Shown here in pieces: positions 24,302 to 64,000 of a stretch of 64,000 nt of DNA (positions within the stretch are counted from its first letter, which is position 1; every line of letters starts with the position of its first letter). The DNA comes from Microbotryum violaceum (Eukaryota): NCBI GenBank assembly GCA_001244265.2, contig CDLV01000006.1, positions 1,054,001-1,118,000 of the forward strand. The letters run 5' to 3'. The notes below the pieces were generated by a model, which saw only the letters and a program-made list of their open reading frames with translations, did no database searches and was not told where the DNA came from. The position numbers and the translations under genes are program-made.

Positions 24302-25723
24302 ATGCTCGCCTTCGCTCTTGCTCTCGCCTCCGTGGCTGCCCTCGCCGCTGCTCGACCCATCTCGGTCGCCCTTGCCGCTGTTGAGACTGCTCTCTCCCTC
24401 CCAAACACCACTCAGACCAACAACGCGACTTTATATTGGCGTGAGTACTCTTTCTAGTCTTCTGTTCGGGTCTTGTCTTTCGCGTAGCACCGGGAAATGA
24501 GCTCGGCGCTTCTGGCCTCCGCGGAGAATTTAGGGGGCCCGCCGCCTGGCACCCCCTTTGTCCGGGCGCCCCCCCCCCCCCCTCTCTCAAAAAGGCCCCA
24601 TGCTCCCATTGTTATCGTGTAGCATCCTGACTGATACAATCTACTATCATTATGTGCACCTATAGAAAACGGCAACGCCGGTGCCTGCCGCCTCTACTCG
24701 AACGACACCGACCTCGTCGTCGGTCTCCCCTTCGAGTTTTACTCCGACCTCGGTGCCGTCTCTCCTTACTGCGGCTCTTACCTCTTCGTCACCAACCACA
24801 TCAACAACGTCACCACCCCCGCTCGTATTGCCGATGCCTCTGCGACCAACGGCACCCTCTCGCTCTCCGTCGCTACGTGGCGAGCGCTTAATGGTGACGG
24901 CACCAACTTGACCCAGGTTACTTGGCGCTTTGCCAATAAGACCGAGGCCGCCGCTGCCGAGGTTGCTTTGATCTCTGCTACCCGTAAGTCAGTTTTCTAC
25001 TTTTGCCGTCTTGGCATGGTACCTCGCGCACGACACAGTTCATTGCGCTAGTCAAGAAAAGTCTGCTGACGCCGTGCGCCCCTGTCTTAACTAGAGTTCG
25101 CCGTGGGCGCCGACGCCGCCGCCAAGGCCGCCGCCGCCAAGTCCGCCGATACCTCTGAGGCCGCCGCATCCTCTGCTGCTCAGCAACAAGCTTCCACTAA
25201 AGCTGCCATCACCCAGGCCGCTCAACAGCAACAGAAGACCTCTGCTGCCTACGTCGCTCCTACCACCACTGCTTACGTTGCCCCCACCACCACCACCAAA
25301 GTTGCCCCCACCACCACCACCACCGCCTACGTCGCCCCCACCACCACCGCTTACGTCGCCCCCAAGACCTCGGCTTACGTCGCCCCCACCACCTCGGCCT
25401 ACAAGGCCTCGTCGGCTTCGTCGGGCTCCTACTCCGGTACGGCTACCTACTTCACCCAAGGTGGTGTCGCCGGCAACTGCGGCCAAGTTCACCAAGACTC
25501 GGACTACATCGTCGCCTTGACCTCGGCCATGTACTCCGGTGGATCCCACTGCGGCCAAGGTGTTCGCATCTGCACTTCGTCGGGCAAGTGCATCTCCGCG
25601 ACCGTCGCCGACTCATGCCCCAGCTGCAGCTCGAGTGGTGATTTGGATCTGTCGGTCTCCGCCTTCCGCGCCCTCGCTTCCCTCGACGCCGGTGTCGTCG
25701 GCATCTCGTGGTCGTTCGCTTAA
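24302..25723 (+). CDS. Secreted protein with two RlpA-like DPBB domains separated by an Ala/Thr-rich linker
   Basis: Signal peptide MLAFALALASVAALAAA; domain 1 ATLYW|ENGNAGAC...SPYCG...IADAS; domain 2 SGTATYFTQGGVAGNCG...HCG...VADSCPSC...DLDLSVSAFRAL...ISWSF*. Introns at ~24441-24665 and ~24984-25094. Confidence 0.88.
25246..25404 (+). repeat. Imperfect coding tandem repeat (AYVAPTTT)n, probable O-glycosylated stalk
   Basis: Six related units (gcc/gct tac gtc gcc ccc acc acc...) in the translation AYVAPTTT AYVAPTTTT KVAPTTTTT AYVAPTTT AYVAPKTS AYVAPTTS. Confidence 0.85.
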
Positions 25724-55463: not shown

Positions 55464-57719
55464 GATGGGCGTTTCGAGGCCACGCGTAATCCACTGCGTT
55501 GCGCTGCGTTGTCGATTCACACGGGTTGACGCAGAGCGAGAGAGCAGTATCGCGCGAGGGCTGGCGAGCTGAGGTCGGTGTCTCGGTCCTCGTCTCGGTC
55601 GTTCAAGGGGTCGTAGTTCTTCTGGTTGAACGATGCGCCAGACTGAGGCCAAGACAGCAAGTGCGACACCTGCTGCTAACGCGAGGGGCGAACGACAAGG
55701 CACCGCAAACAACGCGTTGGCCGTAGTGTGATCCGGGGGCATGAGGCGGCATCTCGACCGAGCGCTCCCCGCGCACCGCGTAGCCTGCGAGCGCGGTGCT
55801 GGTGGCGCGGCACCGAGGGCTCGGCGAGGGGTCAGTCGGGCTCAGGGCGGCCGCCGTCGCGAAGATGGGCGGCGGGCGCGCATCCGGTGTTCCGCCGCGT
55901 CCGAGGCGTGTGTGGAGGAACGGTGGTGGCCGCTGCGCACACGCGGCACGCTCAAGCCCAAATGCGAGTTCGACAGGGTCGACATCTCCCGAGCGCCCCG
56001 GTTCGACAATCAAAAAAGCCGAAAAAGTGCGGATCGTGAGCCATGGGTAAGCTGGCCCGGGACTTCAACTTGCAGACTCCGAGATGTAACGATGGATACT
56101 CGAGAATCCACATTTTTCTGTTCCAAATGTCCTGTTTTTAAACCAAGCACTCGAGGATCGCAACTCGGAAGACTTTGAAGAAACCCCGATCATAGCTCGA
56201 AAGATTTCAAAGTGAGTTTGTGTGCCTGGGGGTCTCTGGGGGCCCCATTACTGGTGCAGGAGAGTAGTATCTCGGTATCGCAGACATCATTTGGCGTCGA
56301 TTGGTACTAAGTGCTCCCTAAGTAATGTAGGTATCGGTACTTCGGTAACAAGACCCGCCAGCGTCAACCAGACCACCTACATCCTAGAAACGGAGCGCTA
56401 CTATCAAAACTAGGCAGAACAGCGAAACAAAAACAATGTGATTGTTCTGGTCACCCCTATAGGTAGTAGTGTGAAAATATTCACCGCCGGTGACTTGTAT
56501 CGAAACGAACCCCATCCGCGGACCCGCGACGCAACGAATGAGCCTTGTCGGAGCCACCGCAAACTTTTGCCAAGGCCGCGCGCGGACTTGTGACTCGCCT
56601 CCCGTCGGCGCCCGATCTCAATGGGCAAAATCCAGATCCAGAAACCACCGTTTGAGCAAACGTTCACGGTTTCTCTAATAAGACCTTTGGCCCAAGCTAC
56701 CTACCTTATACAGCTATTTGCCCTGAGTTCTTGTGGTAAGTTGGCGTTCGACGATGAGATAATCTTATCGATGAATGGTCTGGGCCGTTGGAATCAATGT
56801 GTCTCGGTGCCAGCGATAGGCCGCAACGATCCACGGGCCAGCGGCCGCTCGGGCGCGTCAGGCAGGCCGAGGCTGTGGCTCCCTGAAAATGTGTTGTATG
56901 ATGTCGGGCCTACATACGTGAAGGAGAAATATTGCGTATAGATAGGCACCGAATGATGTCTACCGCAACTTAAAGTTGATATACCTAACCAATGGACCGG
57001 CGGTCGCTGGTAAATTCAGCTGGAAAAGGCCGAACAGCTTGGCGTCTAGGCCCACCGCGCTCGGACACCAATCTGCATCTCGGCTACTTCTAGAAGATCG
57101 CCCTGCTCAAGACATTTGATCGGCGGGCGCCGGCCCCGAGCTGTCGATCACTCATCCATATAGGCTCGGGGCCTTGGAGTTTGATGAGCCCTTTGAAGTG
57201 AGATCTTATCCCAGGCGAGCAACAATTTTAATACGCCAGTCAAAAAAAACACTCTGTCGAGTTTTGGTGCTCGGTGGCCGGCACGCGCGAATGGCCGGGG
57301 ACCATCGAAAAATTGACTCCGAAACGAAACTTCCCTATCAGAAGGTCGCTTGACAATGAGTTGACGTATTGTTTCAGTAAGGAAAAACACGAGATGATGA
57401 ACAATGCAGAGAGCAGTCAAAGAAAGAAAGAAGGGAGAAAGAGAAAGAGGAGGCGCACAAGCGCAGCGAGTCAAACGCGAACCCTTCCCTGGGGCAATCA
57501 ACGAGGGGCGGAGGGGGCGATTGTAAGTTCGTAGTGGAAGCAATATGCGAAGGAAAAATGAGTTGAGAGTTTGGGAAGCAAAGGGTGGGAGGAAGCAGTA
57601 AAGAAGAAGGGAGAACGGGCCATAGTGTCTGTTTGTTCTTCCCAGGGTCATGTATAGAAGTGTGCGTGCGAATGGAACAGGAAAGGAGAAGCACGGAGAG
57701 TCCAAAGGACGTGTTCAAT

Positions 57720-60700
57720 CTACCGCTTGACGATAACCTCGAACTTGCCAAAGTCTTCCGAAGACATGGCCCAGATGGCGGACAGTCCTTCGGCGACCGA
57801 CGCGAACGGCTGAATGACGATCGAGCAGAGCAAGTGAACGACGATTTTGTACCACGGTTGCCCGTAGTCGAGCTCCTGGAACAGGATACCGATCAGGTAC
57901 AACGAGAAGAAGGTGATGAAACAGAAGTTGGCCGAGATGGCGATCCACAAGGGCGTGACCGAGTGCTCGATGAAACCCAGGGGTAAGTTGACGATCGTGA
58001 CCGCGAGCGTGAATACACCGACGATCCACAGGTTGATGGCGAAGTTGGGCAAACCGTAGAGGCCCTTGATGTCGCGAATACCCATGAACCAACGGCGACG
58101 CTGCTTGAGGAAATCGCGCAATGTTGTCGGCGACTGCTCTCGGACGAGACCGTGGATACGACCCGACGTGAAGCCTCGTCGCCATGCGTCCTGCGAGAAC
58201 TCGAAATCTTCGGCAAGCGAACCGAAGTCCCACGTACACTCGTTCTCCATCTCGCCGTTCGTCATAAGGAAAGATCCGTGCACACCGAAGACGGGGCGAT
58301 GGATGACCGAGTTTTGGAAGTGGAAACGCGCGAGGTCGTCACCAACACGAATACCATCGGCGACGGTGAAGTACCAATTATCCCAGAAACCTTCGCCGTT
58401 GTACAAAATGATACCTTGACCGAAGTGATGGGGCGTGTAACGGATGAACTCGATGCAGTGGCGGAGCGATTCGGCGTCGGTAACGGATTCTTCGTCCCTG
58501 TGGTCATCGATGCCAAAAGTGGGCTGGCTGGTCAACTTTCTGCAATCAGATGCAATCCAAATCAGAACATTCATTCACGTACATGTGCAGAATCCAATCA
58601 TAGACACCGAGCGAGACGTGATAACGGAAGTAGTCGAGCGCACGAGCCTTGTACTTGGCCTTGCCGAGCGGCGACTTGTACGATTTGGGGCAGACAATGT
58701 TTTGCAGGTCGGGGTAGACGTAGGGCTCGTCCGTCAAGACGACAACCTTGACGGCCGGGTGGTACTTTTCGAGCTTGATGAGCTTGTTGTAACCACGTCG
58801 GACGGCGGCCTCGTTGGATCCCTTGGTGACGAGCACGACGAAGAAGTTGCGGATGTACTCGCGGTGGACGAGGCGCTTGTCCATCACTTCCTTCGGCGGC
58901 GACCGATCGGGCGTGACGAAACCGACGTAAGCGAAGAGGCAGTTGGGCAGCGACAGCACCCACACGAAACGCCACAGCGAAGAGAAGGTGATCGCATCGT
59001 AAGTCCATTCACCAGTAGGGTGGTAAATAGTCCAGATCGTCGTAAGAATAGGGATGACGAAGATGTGACCAACCCAAGCCCAGCCCTGGATATTGAGCAA
59101 CCAGCGCGTGCGCATTGCTTCCTTGTCGTGCGACAAGTCTGAAGTCCAGCGGGTCGAGTGCAATTGCGCGAGCACGTCGGGATCGGTCGGGTCGGGGACG
59201 GCGGGACGAGTGGTGGGAGTGCGCCAGTTCATGATCGTGTGAAGGTTGCCAGTCATCTTGGTCCACTTGCTAGCCGAACCACGAGCCAAGCCCTTGACGA
59301 GAACGATGGGACCCATGATGAGGACGGTAGCGAGGCCACGCGCGGCTTTAAGCGGGAGCGAGCCAGCCGTGTTGGGCTTGGTGACAAAGAGACCATCCCA
59401 GATGTACTTGCCGAGCTTGAGACCGACACGATCCAACAAGTGGTAGCCGACCCAGGCGACGAAGAAGTTGGTCATCAAGGACAGGATGTAGGTCGGCGTG
59501 ACGACGTTCCAGTACGACGTGTCATTCTTCGCAAAGTAAAGGAGCAAGTGGGGCATGACACCATAGAGGGTAAGGAACTGCATGAGGTAGAAACCGTACG
59601 AGATCTTGCCGACCCAGACGAATATACCCCACGAGGTGAACCACTGCATCGCGTGAGACAGTTCGACCCAGAGCAGAATCATGGCAGGCGGGATCCAGTT
59701 CGACATGAGCATGTACTGCGGCCAGATGTTGGACGGGTCGTAGCCGAACTTGGAGTCGTAGACTGAAATGGAACCAGCGGCGCGATCGGCGGGGCCGGCG
59801 ACGGCTGTCCCACCAGCGATCATCGCCATGCCAAGAGCCATGGCAGCGCACTCGATACCGACGGTCAACTTCCACGAGTCCTGGATGACGCGGACGAAGC
59901 CGGCGGCGTGCAAGTCGGCGAAGAACAGGCCAATCATGTAGAGCATGTTCGGCGACGAGATCCACCACAGCGAGACGATGATGGCAGCGTAGAGAGGGTA
60001 ACGACCGCGTGTCGGCAAGGGCGCGAGCACAGCGGCGACGATATAGACCAAGACGGAGCCCCAGAACTGATCGTAGGTCGTCCAGAGCGCCGAACCGACA
60101 ACGAGCATGTATTGATGGTTCGATTCGGTGAAGAGGTCGAGGCAGAATTGCAGGAAACCAGGGAAATTGCCGATGTTGCACCACGTAGGAACCCACAGCG
60201 ACGACGAGATCAAGAAGGTGTTTTGAGCCTCCATAGCGGCGTTGAACAGGTTTGCCTTGCACGTCCTCCACTGAATGAAGCCGACGACGATGGCGGGGAA
60301 AGCCAAGCGGATTGAGCGACGGAACAGAGACGACGACAGGGTGAGCCAACGAGGTCCCGGGGGCTTGCGTGGCGTCAGGGGCTTTTCAGGCTCGTCGTCA
60401 CCGTGAACGACGGGGGCTTTGGGCACGGTCAGCGCCGACTTGAGGAAGGATGCGGCAAGGACGCGACCACCGAGGAGGAAATACATGCCGACCGCGAGTT
60501 GACCGTTGCGCAGGAAGCCTTGTATCGATCCTTCGGCGAGTACGTTCGGGTGCGACGACGACCACGTCAAATCAGAAAAGTGATGGGTGAAGATGATGAC
60601 GGATGCGATGCCACGGAGACCATCGATCCAGTCGAGTCGGTTCGCTCGGCTGATGATGACCGCTGGCGGCTCCCGTGGACCCGGGCCCTTGGCGCCCATG

Positions 60701-61610
60701 TCGGCCGGACCACCGATTGCGGGCGAGCTCGGCGGGATCGTAAAGTCCTTTTCAAGTGTGATCTCATCACCATAACGCGAATCTGCGCGACCGTAGCTTT
60801 CCTTTCCGGGAGCAATCTCGGCAATCGCACCGCGCGACATCTCGCTGCCTTGGTCGTAGGAATGACGCCAGTCGTTGTTCAATGCGACACGCGACGAGTT
60901 GGCCGGTAACCCAGAGTGCATATTCTCTGTCCCAATCGTCGAGGCGCGACCGGACTCGATGCCCGAGTGCTGCCCAAACGAGCCCTCGCGATATCGGCCA
61001 AAGTTGGAGGAGGGTGATGACGGGTTGTATTGGCCCTCCTGGTACCCTGTCGCATAGCCGTGGTGACTCGACTCCGACTATCGACAGAAGGAAACAAACA
61101 GAGGGAGCGAGTCAGCACAACCGAACTGAGATGAGACACTGGCATCGCCAGAGCGAGGTCCAAAGATGTGCGAAAAAAGAGGAGAGCACTAACGTTGTAA
61201 GCGTTGGCGGTGCGGTCGTAGCTACCGTCGCTGCTCATCGTGTCGGGTCGCTGGTGCATCTGTGTAGGCTGATCGACTTTGGTGCCACTGCTGCCACTTT
61301 CATGGCTGCGCTCGTACGAGTCGGCACCGGTCGGTGACCCCGGTTCAGAGTGGTCGCCACCGACGGCCGAGTAGCCCTGCACGCCCGTAGCGGACAGGCC
61401 TTGGTACTTGCGCATCTCGGCATCCGAATCGACAAACGACTCGCGGCGCGACCCGAGGTTTGAGTCGTCGTCATAGTCGTGAAAAGGGCCTAGGGGTGCA
61501 CTGGCGTCCATGTCGGGCGATCGGCGTGCGTGATCGGCGTGACCGGGTTGGCTGGCAGCGATGTGGGCTTCGTAATCCGCTGGGTTATGAGCCGGCCTCG
61601 ATGAGAACAT
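57720..61610 (-). CDS. Acyl_transf_3 acyltransferase fused to Egghead/BRE-3-like GT2 beta-1,4-mannosyltransferase (~1229 aa, 3 exons)
   Basis: Exons 61194-61610, 58583-61077 and 57720-58497 sum to 3690 nt. AT3 motifs: RLDWIDGLRGIA...FTHH, AVGMYFLLGG, FRRSIRL, LWT, GKISYGFYL. GT2 motifs: VTKG, KYKARALDY, HMDEES, GQGIILY, HGSFL, AEDFEF, EQSP...FLKQRRRW, FEVIVK. Confidence 0.88.
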
Positions 61611-63039
61611 GCCACGAAAGACCGTGCAGCGAAACGGGAGAAACGGGAGGGAGATCTAAGCGAGCAAAGACCAGGTGTCTGCTGCGTGCAAGACCGAGGG
61701 GACAAACGACGCAGGGAACGAGCGCGTAGACCAAGTAGACGCTGCGGGCGGAGACAGACGGGTCGGCAACAATGAATGAAGGGAACGAGAGAAGGGCGAG
61801 CGATCAGGGTCAACTAAAACTTCAAAATAGACTTGGTCGTATCATGCTCCGTTTCGTGTTGGGTGGGAAAAAGAGGGCGAACGATGGGCGCGTCGCGCGA
61901 GCGGGCGGGGGTAGATCAAACCAGCTGGCACCCACCGCGCGTGGCCCGGCGGGCGACGTATTCACATCACACGCACCGCACCAGTTTCCGTGCGACCCCG
62001 ACCCAGCATCGGATGTCTCGTGCAAGTTGGTGCAGCAAGCTGTAATAGCGAGGTCACAAACCTAGCCTCTGGTCCTTGCATTACACTGATCGAGGTGTAT
62101 CGTGGTCCAAAGGTCGATGCATGGTGATGTGCCGAGGCCGGATCGCTTCGCAGCACGGACAGCGCCGGGGAGGTCATCGATTCGCCGCGCCCGCCCGTCG
62201 TCGTTCGCCTGGCACCGATCATCGACCCAGCGCTAGCGGCGCTCGGCCGTCGTGACCATGACCGACGCAGCAGGGCACAACAGCACTCCGCCATGGCCCA
62301 GATCAACCAACGCCGACCCTCGACTCTAGACCAGAACCCAATCGTATCGACAGATGACACCCAAGCCGCTTACAGGGGGGGGGCAGGGGAATGTGAAACT
62401 CACCTCGTACGAAACAACGCCCCAAGCGTGTCGGCAGTGGTGGTTCGGACGCAAGTCGCGCGCGAAGAACGACACGCGCCCACGAGAGCAACCAACGACG
62501 ATCGGGTTAAGCGCTCGACAAAAGGCGAGAGCGAGGGTCGACGACTGGTGCAGGGCAGAAGACGATCAAAAGACCTAAACGGGAGGAGAAAAGAGAGAAA
62601 GGGGGGGATGGGGGGATGTTGTGTCGGAGGGATGGGCGACAGCGGGTGAGATCGAGGTTGAGGCAGGAACTAAAGAGCCCGGCGACGCTGTCGTCGCGCA
62701 GGCCCCATGTTTGGGAGAGTTTGGGGGTGGGCAAGCCAGCGGATGCCAGCACCCGGCAGCCGCGCTTGCACACGCGTTGCTAGCAGGCGCCCGCGCAACG
62801 CCACACACTCGTCAAGTCGTTCCATCGCATTCACCTTCAACGACTACTCAATGTGATTTTCAGATGTCAGTAAAAAGAGAGAGAACTATGCGAGTCCTAA
62901 AATCAAGGGGGAAAACCCAGAGAAAAACCGAGACTGAGAGAACCCATCCCTGCTGCACCCGGCACGCGCGGGCGGAGATCGCTTCTCACGGTTTTCTCTA
63001 ACCAAAATAGGAGAAAGTGATGTCCGCGCAACCGCCATT

Positions 63040-64000
63040 CTACCCAAAGAGACTGGCACCCCCTTCAGAAAACAACAACGAGATCGATTCACCGTTATGT
63101 GTCTGGGACGTCGATAGCGATGCATGTCAGGGAAAAGTTGGTCGTGGAGCAATCGCAGTTGGAGAAAAAAAAATCTGCGGGTACTTACTCGGCGAATTGA
63201 CTCGGCGACGACGGGAGAGATGTCCATCACCTCCAGTTTCCCGTGGGCCTGCTTTAAATGCTCAGTCTGGCAGATCGTGTTGGACACCTGTTCGTCACAT
63301 CATGAGAGGGGGGTGTCAGAACAACCGGAAGAGGTACGAGGAGGGATCAGCGAGCACCTACCACGAGCTTTTCTAACGGCAATCGAGCCAACTCGGACAT
63401 GCTCTCTCCAGACAGCAAGCCTGGGTACCACAACGCTCGTCAGCACCTTATTCGATGTCCATTTTTTTTCTCCACATAATTGAAGTGACTTACCATGGGA
63501 TACGACCGCATAGACTTTCCTGGCCCCACTCGCCAAGAGCGCGTTCGTCGCCAACTTAATCGTTCCACCCGTGTCGCACATGTCGTCGATCAAGACCGCG
63601 ACCTTGCCCTTGACGTCACCGACGAGAATCTCCATCCTCGCTTCGGCATTGGGTGCAGCACCCTTCACGCGGTTGCGGTTGATGAGCGCGAAGTCAACAT
63701 CGAGGCGATCGGCGAGCATCGTCGCTCGCTTGGCTCCTCCGGCGTCGGGCGAGACTATGATGGCGTTACGCCAGTCGGGGATGTTCTCCTTGACCCAGTG
63801 GATTATCGACGGCTCGGTCCAGAGGTTGTCAACGGGGACCTCGAAGAAGCCTTGAATTTGACTGGCGTGCAGGTCCATCGTGATGACGTGATTGCAACCG
63901 GCGATTTGCAGCATGTTGGCGACGAGCTTGGCCGTGATAGGTGCACGGGACTTGTCCTTGCGGTCCATGCGCGAGTAAGGGAAGCACGGGATCACGGCGG
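63040..64000 (-). CDS. PRS: Ribose-phosphate pyrophosphokinase (PRPP synthetase); 5' part lies outside the window
   Basis: [86 protein letters not shown]. Confidence 0.96.

What the first reader, a model, noticed from the sequence alone, without database searches (positions are those of the whole stretch)
57720..61610. Acyltransferase-3 / Egghead-like mannosyltransferase fusion: candidate single-protein synthase of an O-acylated beta-mannoside or mannan
Seen: the AT3 region (~59420-60640; DGLRG..HH, RRxxR, LWT, GxISYxxYL) and the start of the GT2 region lie in one stop-free frame (58546-60921). The fusion is therefore not an artefact of joining exons. The GT2 half keeps KARAL, DEES, HGS, ED and QRRRW. 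Established: Egghead/BRE-3 are GT2 GDP-Man beta-1,4-mannosyltransferases for glycosphingolipids; Acyl_transf_3 proteins (OafA, NodX, GumF type) acylate extracytoplasmic glycans; red yeasts such as Rhodotorula make beta-mannan exopolysaccharides. Inference: mannosylation and O-acylation of a capsule, wall glycan or glycolipid are coupled in one polypeptide. I do not know of a characterised fungal enzyme with this architecture. A disordered N-terminus of ~230 aa and long gene-free flanks suggest regulated expression.
Basis: partly seen in the sequence, partly recalled or inferred. Interest (0 to 1): 0.8.

Follow-up and report, generated by a model that had tools for sequence, protein, structure and literature searches.

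The report
Fungal acyltransferase-glycosyltransferase fusion with hidden partner
One fungal gene joins a membrane enzyme that adds acyl groups to sugars with a sugar-transferring enzyme, an old and uncharacterised pairing that probably builds an acylated surface sugar and may work with a second, degenerate acyltransferase copy.

Summary
Confirmed. The minus-strand gene (CDS 61610-57720, two introns, 1229 aa) encodes one AT3 + GT2 protein; a single spliced 4,195-nt contig covers both halves. AT3 scores above the Pfam cut-off, keeps all acyl-CoA-site residues, and an orthologue's model matches HGSNAT (Z 16.9). The fusion is old: Pucciniomycotina, Pseudomicrostroma, chytrids and Paraphysoderma, one GT2 clade. 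Two corrections. The GT2 is Egghead-like (29-38% identity) but not an orthologue, so mannose is inferred. It ends at the gating loop and lacks the two helices that close the cellulose-synthase channel, so a lipid-held mannoside (0.40) is slightly likelier than a secreted mannan (0.30). New here: a His-less AT3 paralogue lies 158 kb away, is the adjacent gene in Geranomyces, is fused in front in Paraphysoderma, and is predicted to pair with the fused AT3 (0.66, controls 0.00). The upstream 'gene-free flank' is mostly 5' UTR with a 662-nt intron. No paper on the fusion was found in ten open-library searches. The scan had not noted this gene family before; it noted an analogous GT2-plus-two-AT3 gene trio on other DNA. 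Product and donor are untested.

The parts
62404..62587 (-). 5' UTR exon (non-coding first exon)
   Evidence: X19 record 15 and joint 61741/62404 (one run, 28 letters on the short side); GTGAGT donor
61742..62403 (-). 662-nt intron in the 5' UTR
   Evidence: Joint with CT..AC ends in X19; a contig across it at about a tenth of the depth suggests some unspliced or retained form; no upstream ATG in the 315-nt UTR
61194..61741 (-). Exon 2: rest of 5' UTR, start codon at 61610, aa 1-139
   Evidence: N-terminus aligns with full-length Phenoliferia and Rhodotorula proteins
61078..61193 (-). 116-nt GT-AG intron, phase 0
   Evidence: Predicted; spliced in X1 and X19
58583..61077 (-). Large exon, aa 140-971: end of N-terminal tail, AT3 domain, linker, first half of GT2
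   Evidence: Stop-free frame; covered in one piece by X19 record 13
60640..61610 (-). Ser/Gly/Pro/Asp-rich N-terminal tail, about 285 aa (intron included in the span), with conserved RESF, REGSF and RASTIG blocks
   Evidence: 13% hydrophobic residues; blocks kept in Phenoliferia and Rhodotorula, the RASTIG-like block also in Cystobasidium and Puccinia; disorder and phospho-regulation are inference
59449..60633 (-). AT3 (TmAT-fold) acyltransferase domain 'AT3a', aa 288-682: D291xxR294-x10-H305, Y338xxxxG343, R393xxR396, G523, S632xxxY636
   Evidence: Pfam; motifs against PMC12423673; orthologue model matches HGSNAT, Z 16.9, rmsd 5.0, 295 aligned
59095..59382 (-). Linker: long helix and conserved LHSTRWTSD segment, inferred cytosolic or interfacial
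   Evidence: Helix 445-490 of the orthologue model; conservation
58912..59082 (-). Two membrane helices before the GT2 catalytic domain (equivalent to BcsA TM3-4)
   Evidence: Hydropathy; model helices 542-558 and 574-594; alignment to BcsA from residue 61
58089..58857 (-). GT2 catalytic domain, Egghead family: TDEP, KARAL, DEES, HGSF, AEDF, QRRRW
58498..58582 (-). 85-nt GT-AG intron, phase 2, just before DEES
   Evidence: Only 1 of 4 acceptors tested restores MDEES; spliced in X1 and X19
57720..58061 (-). Two membrane helices, interface helix and C-terminal FEVIVK gating-loop motif (57743-57726); the protein ends one residue later
   Evidence: Model; aligned to R. sphaeroides BcsA up to residue 509; motif survey
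57360..57719 (-). 3' UTR, about 360 nt
   Evidence: X1 and X19 contigs end at 57357 and 57360

Best explanation
A two-step membrane enzyme that makes an O-acylated beta-glycoside on a membrane-held acceptor. Step 1 (inferred): the cytosol-facing GT2 domain transfers mannose from GDP-mannose to a lipid-linked sugar such as glucosylceramide, once or a few times, the acceptor entering sideways where the two post-gating-loop helices are missing. Step 2 (inferred, mechanism unknown): the glycolipid crosses the bilayer. Step 3 (inferred from intact motifs and fold): AT3a takes acyl-CoA, probably acetyl-CoA, from the cytosol and acylates the sugar on the luminal or outer face. AT3a works as a pseudo-symmetric pair with a His-less paralogue, AT3b, encoded elsewhere (predicted). 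Shown: one transcript and reading frame, both domains with their catalytic motifs, the truncated GT2 topology, deep conservation, the AT3b paralogue and its gene-level links. Not shown: donor, acceptor, acyl group, product, location.
For: One ORF and transcript; intronless full-length fusion ORFs in 3 of 18 metagenome loci, L013, L015, L016. AT3 hallmark residues all present; the TMH1 His is kept in 19 of 20 AT3a domains where the motif could be read. Orthologue model pLDDT 88.9, pTM 0.80; both halves have their donor sites on the same side (topology inferred). The only characterised family members make a glycolipid (Egh, BRE-3; PMC10337751 passages). 121 of 135 GT2 relatives carry the gating-loop-like motif, and 101 of those end within one residue of it; the minimal synthase core needs two more helices (PMC8892547 passage). 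Top structural match is PcManGT (Z 20.9, rmsd 4.2, 302 aligned), tied with BcsA (Z 20.1). The genome has a glucosylceramide-synthase-like gene (PF13506, E 1.7e-22). Only 1 of 9 bacterial homologue loci has glycosylation genes beside it. AT3b: adjacent locus tags in Geranomyces, fused in Paraphysoderma, own clade 97% SH-aLRT, complex score 0.66 against best control 0.00.
Against: No biochemical data for any fungal member. Animal Egh is distant, with many bacterial and other sequences in between, so donor and acceptor may differ. The PcManGT, HAS and BcsA matches differ by about 1 Z unit and share 9-14% identity, so they do not settle processivity. AT3s acylate on the far side of the membrane, and a polymer exported by the GT2 itself would explain the coupling more simply than an unknown flip. 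One bacterial relative is fused to a GGDEF domain (P0222), which hints at exopolysaccharide control. IcaA and PgaC also end at the gating loop yet are processive with a partner (recalled). The complex was folded for the Geranomyces pair, not this genome's, and cannot tell a heterodimer from an AT3a homodimer.
Confidence: 0.4

Rival explanations
1. A processive synthase-exporter of an O-acylated beta-mannan (wall or secreted polysaccharide). The GT2 polymerises GDP-mannose, the missing channel helices are supplied by AT3a, AT3b or a small partner, and AT3a acylates the chain as it emerges, like IcaA/IcaD/IcaC in one or two polypeptides.
For: QRRRW, AED finger helix and gating loop intact; fold tied with BcsA and HAS. 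IcaC is an AT3 proposed to acylate PNAG during coupled synthesis and export by IcaAD (PMC9558356 passage); PgaC needs the small membrane partner PgaD (PMC8892547 passage). The other 5 of 6 PF13632 matches in this genome read as three chitin synthases, a two-domain GT and a degenerate cellulose-synthase-like gene, none a CslA-type mannan synthase (my reading of motifs, lower bound). GH26 mannanases are expanded in Microbotryum and rusts (PMC4469406 table; the authors ascribe this to plant mannan). Red-yeast beta-1,3/1,4-mannan is recalled, not seen in any paper read.
Against: Only four membrane helices in the GT2 half; the whole family, including the glycolipid enzyme Egh, ends at the gating loop. 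I could not inspect model coordinates for a channel. No export or polysaccharide genes in the window (0 of 135 frames scanned) or beside most bacterial homologues. O-acylation of a red-yeast mannan was not found in the searches.
Confidence: 0.3
2. The same coupled glycosylation and acylation, but the sugar is not mannose (for example glucose or galactose from a UDP donor).
For: The fusion clade is separated from animal Egh by a 100% SH-aLRT branch (quick tree); identity 29-38%. No GDP-mannose pathway genes beside 9 of 9 bacterial homologues. The 'beta-1,4-mannosyltransferase' names in databases are automatic.
Against: All invariant Egh-family motifs are shared; the nearest solved structure is also a mannosyltransferase by its title, though at 11% identity.
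Confidence: 0.17
3. The domains are tethered but act on different molecules, or the AT3 pair is mainly a scaffold, flippase or acyl-CoA sensor for the GT2.
For: The closest sister clade, standalone chytrid GT2s, has no AT3. AT3b has lost the His. One fused AT3a (P0151) has Asn there. The canonical Glu after the LW motif and the His after SxxxY (recalled consensus) are replaced by Gln. The AT3 of VanT has no known acyl acceptor (PMC9558356 passage).
Against: R-x10-H, RxxR and the TMH9 Tyr are kept from chytrids to Pucciniomycotina, which implies selection on acyl transfer; a second, apparently independent partial-AT3 plus Egh-like fusion exists (P0267).
Confidence: 0.11
4. Two neighbouring genes joined by a gene-model or assembly artefact.
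For: None found; a 12-nt in-frame difference near 60738-60744 shows the assembly or strain differs locally.
Against: Junction lies within one exon and one frame; one spliced contig; fused orthologues at 39-76% identity across three phyla.
Confidence: 0.02

Closest known systems
Egghead / BRE-3 beta-1,4-mannosyltransferases (GT2, animals)
   Same: Same GT2 subfamily: KxRAL, DEE, GQG, GSF, ED, QRxRW and a C-terminal FxVIxK-type end; 29% over 407 aa to Haliotis egh-like P0251, E 1e-41.
   Different: Not orthologous in the tree; carries an AT3 domain and a long N-terminal tail; donor and acceptor untested.
AT3 / TmAT acyltransferases (OafA/OafB, OatA, IcaC, GumF/G; HGSNAT, CASD1/Cas1, GWT1)
   Same: PF01757 above cut-off; all conserved acyl-CoA-site residues; fold matches HGSNAT (Z 16.9).
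   Different: Known fusions named in the papers read are SGNH, alanine racemase and NRF; none is a GT2. Paired with a His-less paralogue.
icaADBC / pgaABCD (PNAG) synthase systems
   Same: A cellulose-synthase-type GT2 linked to an AT3 (IcaC) and to a membrane partner needed for activity.
   Different: There the genes are separate, the GT2 is a different subfamily using UDP-GlcNAc, and a deacetylase is present; polymer synthesis is not shown here.
PcManGT (PDB 6YV7)
   Same: Best structural match over nearly its whole length (Z 20.3-20.9); a membrane GT2 mannosyltransferase. That it is non-processive and acts on a lipid phosphate is recalled; the paper was not held.
   Different: 10-11% identity, archaeal, no acyltransferase domain.
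Cellulose synthase BcsA and hyaluronan synthase
   Same: Same catalytic fold, interface helices and gating loop (Z 18-20).
   Different: Lacks the two helices after the gating loop that complete their channel.

Membership tests
AT3 (PF01757, TmAT fold) | Pfam score above curated cut-off | tested here: met
   42.8 bits against 31, profile positions 2-323 of 326
AT3 (PF01757, TmAT fold) | DxxR-x10-H in TMH1, F/YxxxxG in TMH2, RxxR in TMH3, Gly in TMH6, SxxxY in TMH9 | tested here: met
   D291, R294, H305; Y338, G343; R393, R396; G523 (assigned by eye); S632, Y636 (definitions from PMC12423673)
AT3 (PF01757, TmAT fold) | Ten-helix TmAT fold | tested here: met
   Model of 75%-identical orthologue P0001 against HGSNAT: Z 16.9, rmsd 5.0, 295 aligned; Z 16.5 in the wide search; above the about-13 level expected for helical bundles
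AT3 (PF01757, TmAT fold) | Acyl transfer from acyl-CoA to a glycan | not testable with these tools
   Needs assay
Egghead-like GT2 subfamily | Full-length similarity and shared motifs with egh-like proteins | tested here: met
   E 1e-41 over 407 aa; invariant columns; alignment
Egh/BRE-3 orthologue | Groups with animal Egh to the exclusion of other subfamilies | tested here: not met
   Quick tree of 82 rows (2 dropped for lacking the anchor motif): fusion clade is sister to chytrid standalone GT2s; animal Egh-like rows lie across a 100% SH-aLRT branch; midpoint root, no bootstrap
Egh/BRE-3 orthologue | GDP-Man:GlcCer beta-1,4-mannosyltransferase activity | not testable with these tools
   A GlcCer-synthase-like gene is present; activity needs assay
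Processive synthase-exporter (BcsA/HAS type) | D,D,D,QxxRW catalytic set and gating loop | tested here: met
   TDEP, DEES, AED, QRRRW, FEVIVK
Processive synthase-exporter (BcsA/HAS type) | Six-helix core with two helices after the gating loop | tested here: not met
   Chain ends one residue after FEVIVK; alignment ends at BcsA 509
Processive synthase-exporter (BcsA/HAS type) | Membrane channel completed by another domain or subunit | not testable with these tools
   Model coordinates are not returned; the full fusion plus AT3b exceeds the complex size limit
icaADBC-like system | Clustered synthase, small partner, deacetylase and AT3 | tested here: not met
   No such neighbours among 135 frames of 130 aa or more in the window (short exons not scanned); AT3 is fused

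The most novel reading that the evidence does not exclude
An ancient three-module machine, AT3b + AT3a + Egh-like GT2, present before chytrids, Blastocladiomycota and Dikarya split, is the unidentified synthase of the beta-mannan of red yeasts and their relatives. The acyltransferase pair supplies the missing wall of the export channel, so that polymerisation, export and O-acylation happen in one complex.
Probability: 0.2. Interest if true: 0.85.

Novelty: new variant of a known kind. Interest (0 to 1): 0.62.

Why it matters
It points to an undescribed acylated surface glycoconjugate shared by red yeasts, rust and anther-smut relatives, some exobasidiomycete yeasts and zoosporic fungi. It names a single-copy gene and a partner gene whose deletion would reveal the product. 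If the product is a polymer, it identifies a candidate beta-mannan synthase for Pucciniomycotina and a new way to complete a GT2 channel. If it is a glycolipid, it extends Egghead-type chemistry to fungi with an added acylation step. The AT3a/AT3b pair bears on an open question stated in AT3 reviews: whether AT3 domains without an SGNH domain need a partner.

Tried and rejected
Sequence search of solved structures with the fusion profile: 0 hits at E up to 1. NCBIfam: nothing for the window frames. ESM Atlas: best feature score 0.84 for the full fusion (lead only; chytrid GT2 and egh-like clusters at 0.77-0.78); AT3b matched ascomycete AT3 clusters at 0.97. Gene cluster in the window: none; neighbours are housekeeping genes. 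AT3b or transporter next to the fusion in 18 metagenome loci: none seen, but most loci are under 5 kb. Search for AT3b orthologues returned 8 proteins, 7 chytrid and 1 unnamed fragment; the query was chytrid-weighted and word-based, so co-occurrence across Pucciniomycotina is untested. Bacterial neighbourhoods gave no donor clue. GH26 search of this genome found 0 candidates; the search is exon by exon, so this is inconclusive. Runs X3 and X15 showed no joints and look like DNA. No fused form from Agaricomycotina or Ascomycota appeared among named hits, but only 8,000 candidates and 150 of 2,606 profile hits were listed and 30 representatives or hits were looked up by name, so absence is not shown; standalone ascomycete homologues exist. 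No PgaC/IcaA chain was listed in the fold searches, which is no evidence either way. Passages of PMC12100651, PMC12223506, PMC11119588 and bioRxiv 2024.10.24.620076 held nothing on this question. Look-ups of earlier scan notes by sequence found nothing.
Full report
1. Observation. The gene lies on the minus strand. A stop-free frame from 61077 to 58546 carries the AT3 domain and the GT2 up to KARAL. Two GT-AG introns (61193-61078 and 58582-58498) give a 1229-aa protein from 61610 to 57720. Contigs of 2 of 4 runs laid show both joints, and one 4,195-nt contig (X19, record 13) runs from 57360 to 61743 across both halves; the other two runs show no joints and look like DNA. Three of 18 metagenome loci hold the full fusion as an intronless ORF of 1,230-1,299 codons, and three more hold partial intronless ORFs spanning both halves. 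The gene is single copy in searches of this genome (lower bounds). X19 also shows a 662-nt intron in the 5' UTR and a first exon at 62404-62587, and the next gene's transcript ends near 62853, so the upstream 'gene-free flank' is mostly this gene's leader.

2. The AT3 half. PF01757 scores 42.8 bits against a cut-off of 31. PMC12423673 (first three of seven parts read) defines the conserved acyl-CoA site as DxxR-x10-H, FxxxxG, RxxR, a TMH6 Gly and SxxxY; all are present. PMC9833829 (passages) reports R-x10-H and RxxR as essential. The His is kept in 19 of 20 AT3a domains where TMH1 could be read; P0151 has Asn, and P0152 lacks this part. An AlphaFold2 model of the 75%-identical orthologue P0001 (pLDDT 88.9, pTM 0.80) matches HGSNAT over residues 21-424 (Z 16.9, rmsd 5.0, 295 aligned). 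Against this, two positions I recall as a conserved Glu and His in many AT3s are Gln here.

3. The GT2 half. It belongs to the Egghead family (29% over 407 aa to a Haliotis egh-like protein and 38% over 234 aa to an Aphelenchoides one). Egh makes mannosyl-glucosylceramide (PMC10337751 passages). In a quick tree of 82 GT2 domains the 14 fusion rows fall in one 16-row clade (100% SH-aLRT) with two short rows, one of which begins with the fusion's linker and may be a truncated model. Its neighbours are standalone chytrid GT2s; animal Egh is far off (midpoint root, no bootstrap). Mannose is therefore a reasoned guess. The fold matches PcManGT (Z 20.9), BcsA (20.1) and HAS (19.5), effectively tied (same order for a GT2-only model). 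The chain ends at FEVIVK, which aligns with the BcsA gating loop (residue 509; FxVTxK between TM6 and TM7). PMC8892547 (passages) sets the minimal synthase core at six helices including two after that loop. These two are absent here and across the family: 121 of 135 relatives carry the motif and 101 of them end within one residue. This suits a lipid acceptor entering from the bilayer, but does not exclude a polymer if another part completes the channel; PgaC needs PgaD, and I recall that PgaC and IcaA also end at the loop.

4. Range. Fused or full-length forms were named from Meredithblackwellia, Rhodotorula, Phenoliferia, Atractiella, Cystobasidium and Puccinia (Pucciniomycotina), Pseudomicrostroma (Ustilaginomycotina), Geranomyces, Thoreauomyces and Quaeritorhiza (chytrids) and Paraphysoderma (Blastocladiomycota), at 39-76% identity to the window protein. 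Databases already list both Pfam domains on 8 of the 33 hits, so the architecture is visible in annotation. An unnamed contig holds what looks like a separate partial-AT3 plus Egh-like fusion (P0267).

5. A PF01757 search of this genome gave 2 matches: the fusion and a weak one at G000:C4 about 951,755-953,320, 158 kb away. It is an intact gene with three GT-AG introns. Its relatives carry the next locus tag to the fusion in four Geranomyces annotations and are fused in front of AT3a in two Paraphysoderma proteins, one of them AT3b-AT3a-GT2. AT3a and AT3b profiles align end to end (E 1.4e-41, 27%) and split in a 22-row quick tree (7 AT3b rows, 97% SH-aLRT; this genome's AT3b is on a long branch). 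None of 8 AT3b domains has the TMH1 His (Asn, Thr or Ser); HGSNAT has Asn there, so AT3b need not be dead. A complex prediction for the Geranomyces pair scored 0.66 against 0.00 for the best of 3 controls; runs agree in at least 70% of contacts; partner pLDDT 77-78, other chain 65. That mark was reached by 51 of 78 solved and 2 of 108 mismatched microbial pairs, and by 39 of 65 and 2 of 126 in eukaryotes. The contacts are homologous positions on both chains, a pseudo-two-fold. Because the chains are paralogues, this could reflect an AT3a homodimer surface or likeness to a solved TmAT dimer. Joint presence across Pucciniomycotina is untested (reached only chytrids and one fragment).

6. Context. 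The window has no glycan cluster. The genome has a glucosylceramide-synthase-like gene, a Cas1-type acetyltransferase and five other PF13632 matches, none of which I read as a CslA-type mannan synthase. A TPT-family transporter gene lies right after AT3b; conservation was not testable. One of 9 bacterial homologue loci has glycosylation neighbours.

7. Mechanism and odds. Both donor sites face the cytosol while AT3 delivers its acyl group to the far face, so a coupled product must cross the membrane. Lipid-held mannoside or short oligomannoside, then flip and acylation: 0.40. Exported acylated beta-mannan with a channel completed by the AT3 pair or a partner: 0.30. Another sugar: 0.17. Uncoupled or scaffold role: 0.11. 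Artefact: 0.02.

8. Print. Ten searches of the open library (listings and abstract starts seen) showed no paper on this fusion; one search returned 0 papers. The AT3 reviews read in passages (PMC9558356; PMC9833829) name SGNH, alanine racemase and NRF fusions and say eukaryotic AT3 targets are largely unknown. PMC4469406 (passages) reports GH26 expansion in Microbotryum and rusts. Most subscription journals, including older carbohydrate chemistry, are not in the library, and no supplements were read, so prior mention in a genome table cannot be excluded. Red-yeast beta-1,3/1,4-mannan and the properties of PcManGT are recalled.

9. Verdict. A real, expressed, ancient fusion of two known enzyme kinds, with a probable degenerate partner, and no known product: a new variant of a known kind, interest 0.62.

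Noticed in passing
window 60738-60744: Contigs of X1, X19 and X15 carry 12 more bases here (5 + 7) than the window; the frame is kept and the longer form reads closer to orthologues. Strain allele or local assembly error.
   Followed up: partly
L004 1294-2859 (G000:C4 about 951,755-953,320, minus): His-less AT3 paralogue (AT3b) with three introns and a long low-complexity N-terminus; start codon not mapped.
   Followed up: yes
L009 3965-5690 (minus): TPT-family (PF03151) transporter gene about 1 kb downstream of AT3b; by recall it resembles Cryptococcus Cas4/Uxt nucleotide-sugar transporters.
   Followed up: partly
window 61714-62433: X19 has a contig across the 5' UTR intron at about a tenth of the spliced depth: unspliced precursor, retention or a second start.
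   Followed up: no
window 62853-64000 (minus): Ribose-phosphate pyrophosphokinase gene with three introns spliced in X19; its transcript ends about 270 nt from the fusion's first exon.
   Followed up: partly
L046 1549-2469 (G000:C11): Cellulose-synthase-like GT2 exon without a QxxRW motif in the frames read; possibly a degenerate synthase.
   Followed up: no
L042 (G000:C10): Large multi-domain glycosyltransferase gene with what look like GT4-, GT2- and GT8-type regions (read by eye).
   Followed up: no
window 25091-25720 (+): DPBB/kiwellin-like (expansin-related) small protein in a strongly skewed stretch.
   Followed up: no
proteins P0188, P0222, P0248, P0254, P0267: Tandem AT3-AT3 in Terramyces; Egh-like GT2s fused to GGDEF, TIR, a multi-helix membrane domain, or a partial AT3 in other lineages.
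   Followed up: partly
window 1-52000: Other Pfam hits are ordinary: MFS transporter, Opi1, AICARFT/IMPCHase, DUF383/384, nitrilase, L19e, DnaJ, Sds3, racemase-like, endonuclease, histidine phosphatase, Ulp1, AAA ATPase.
   Followed up: no
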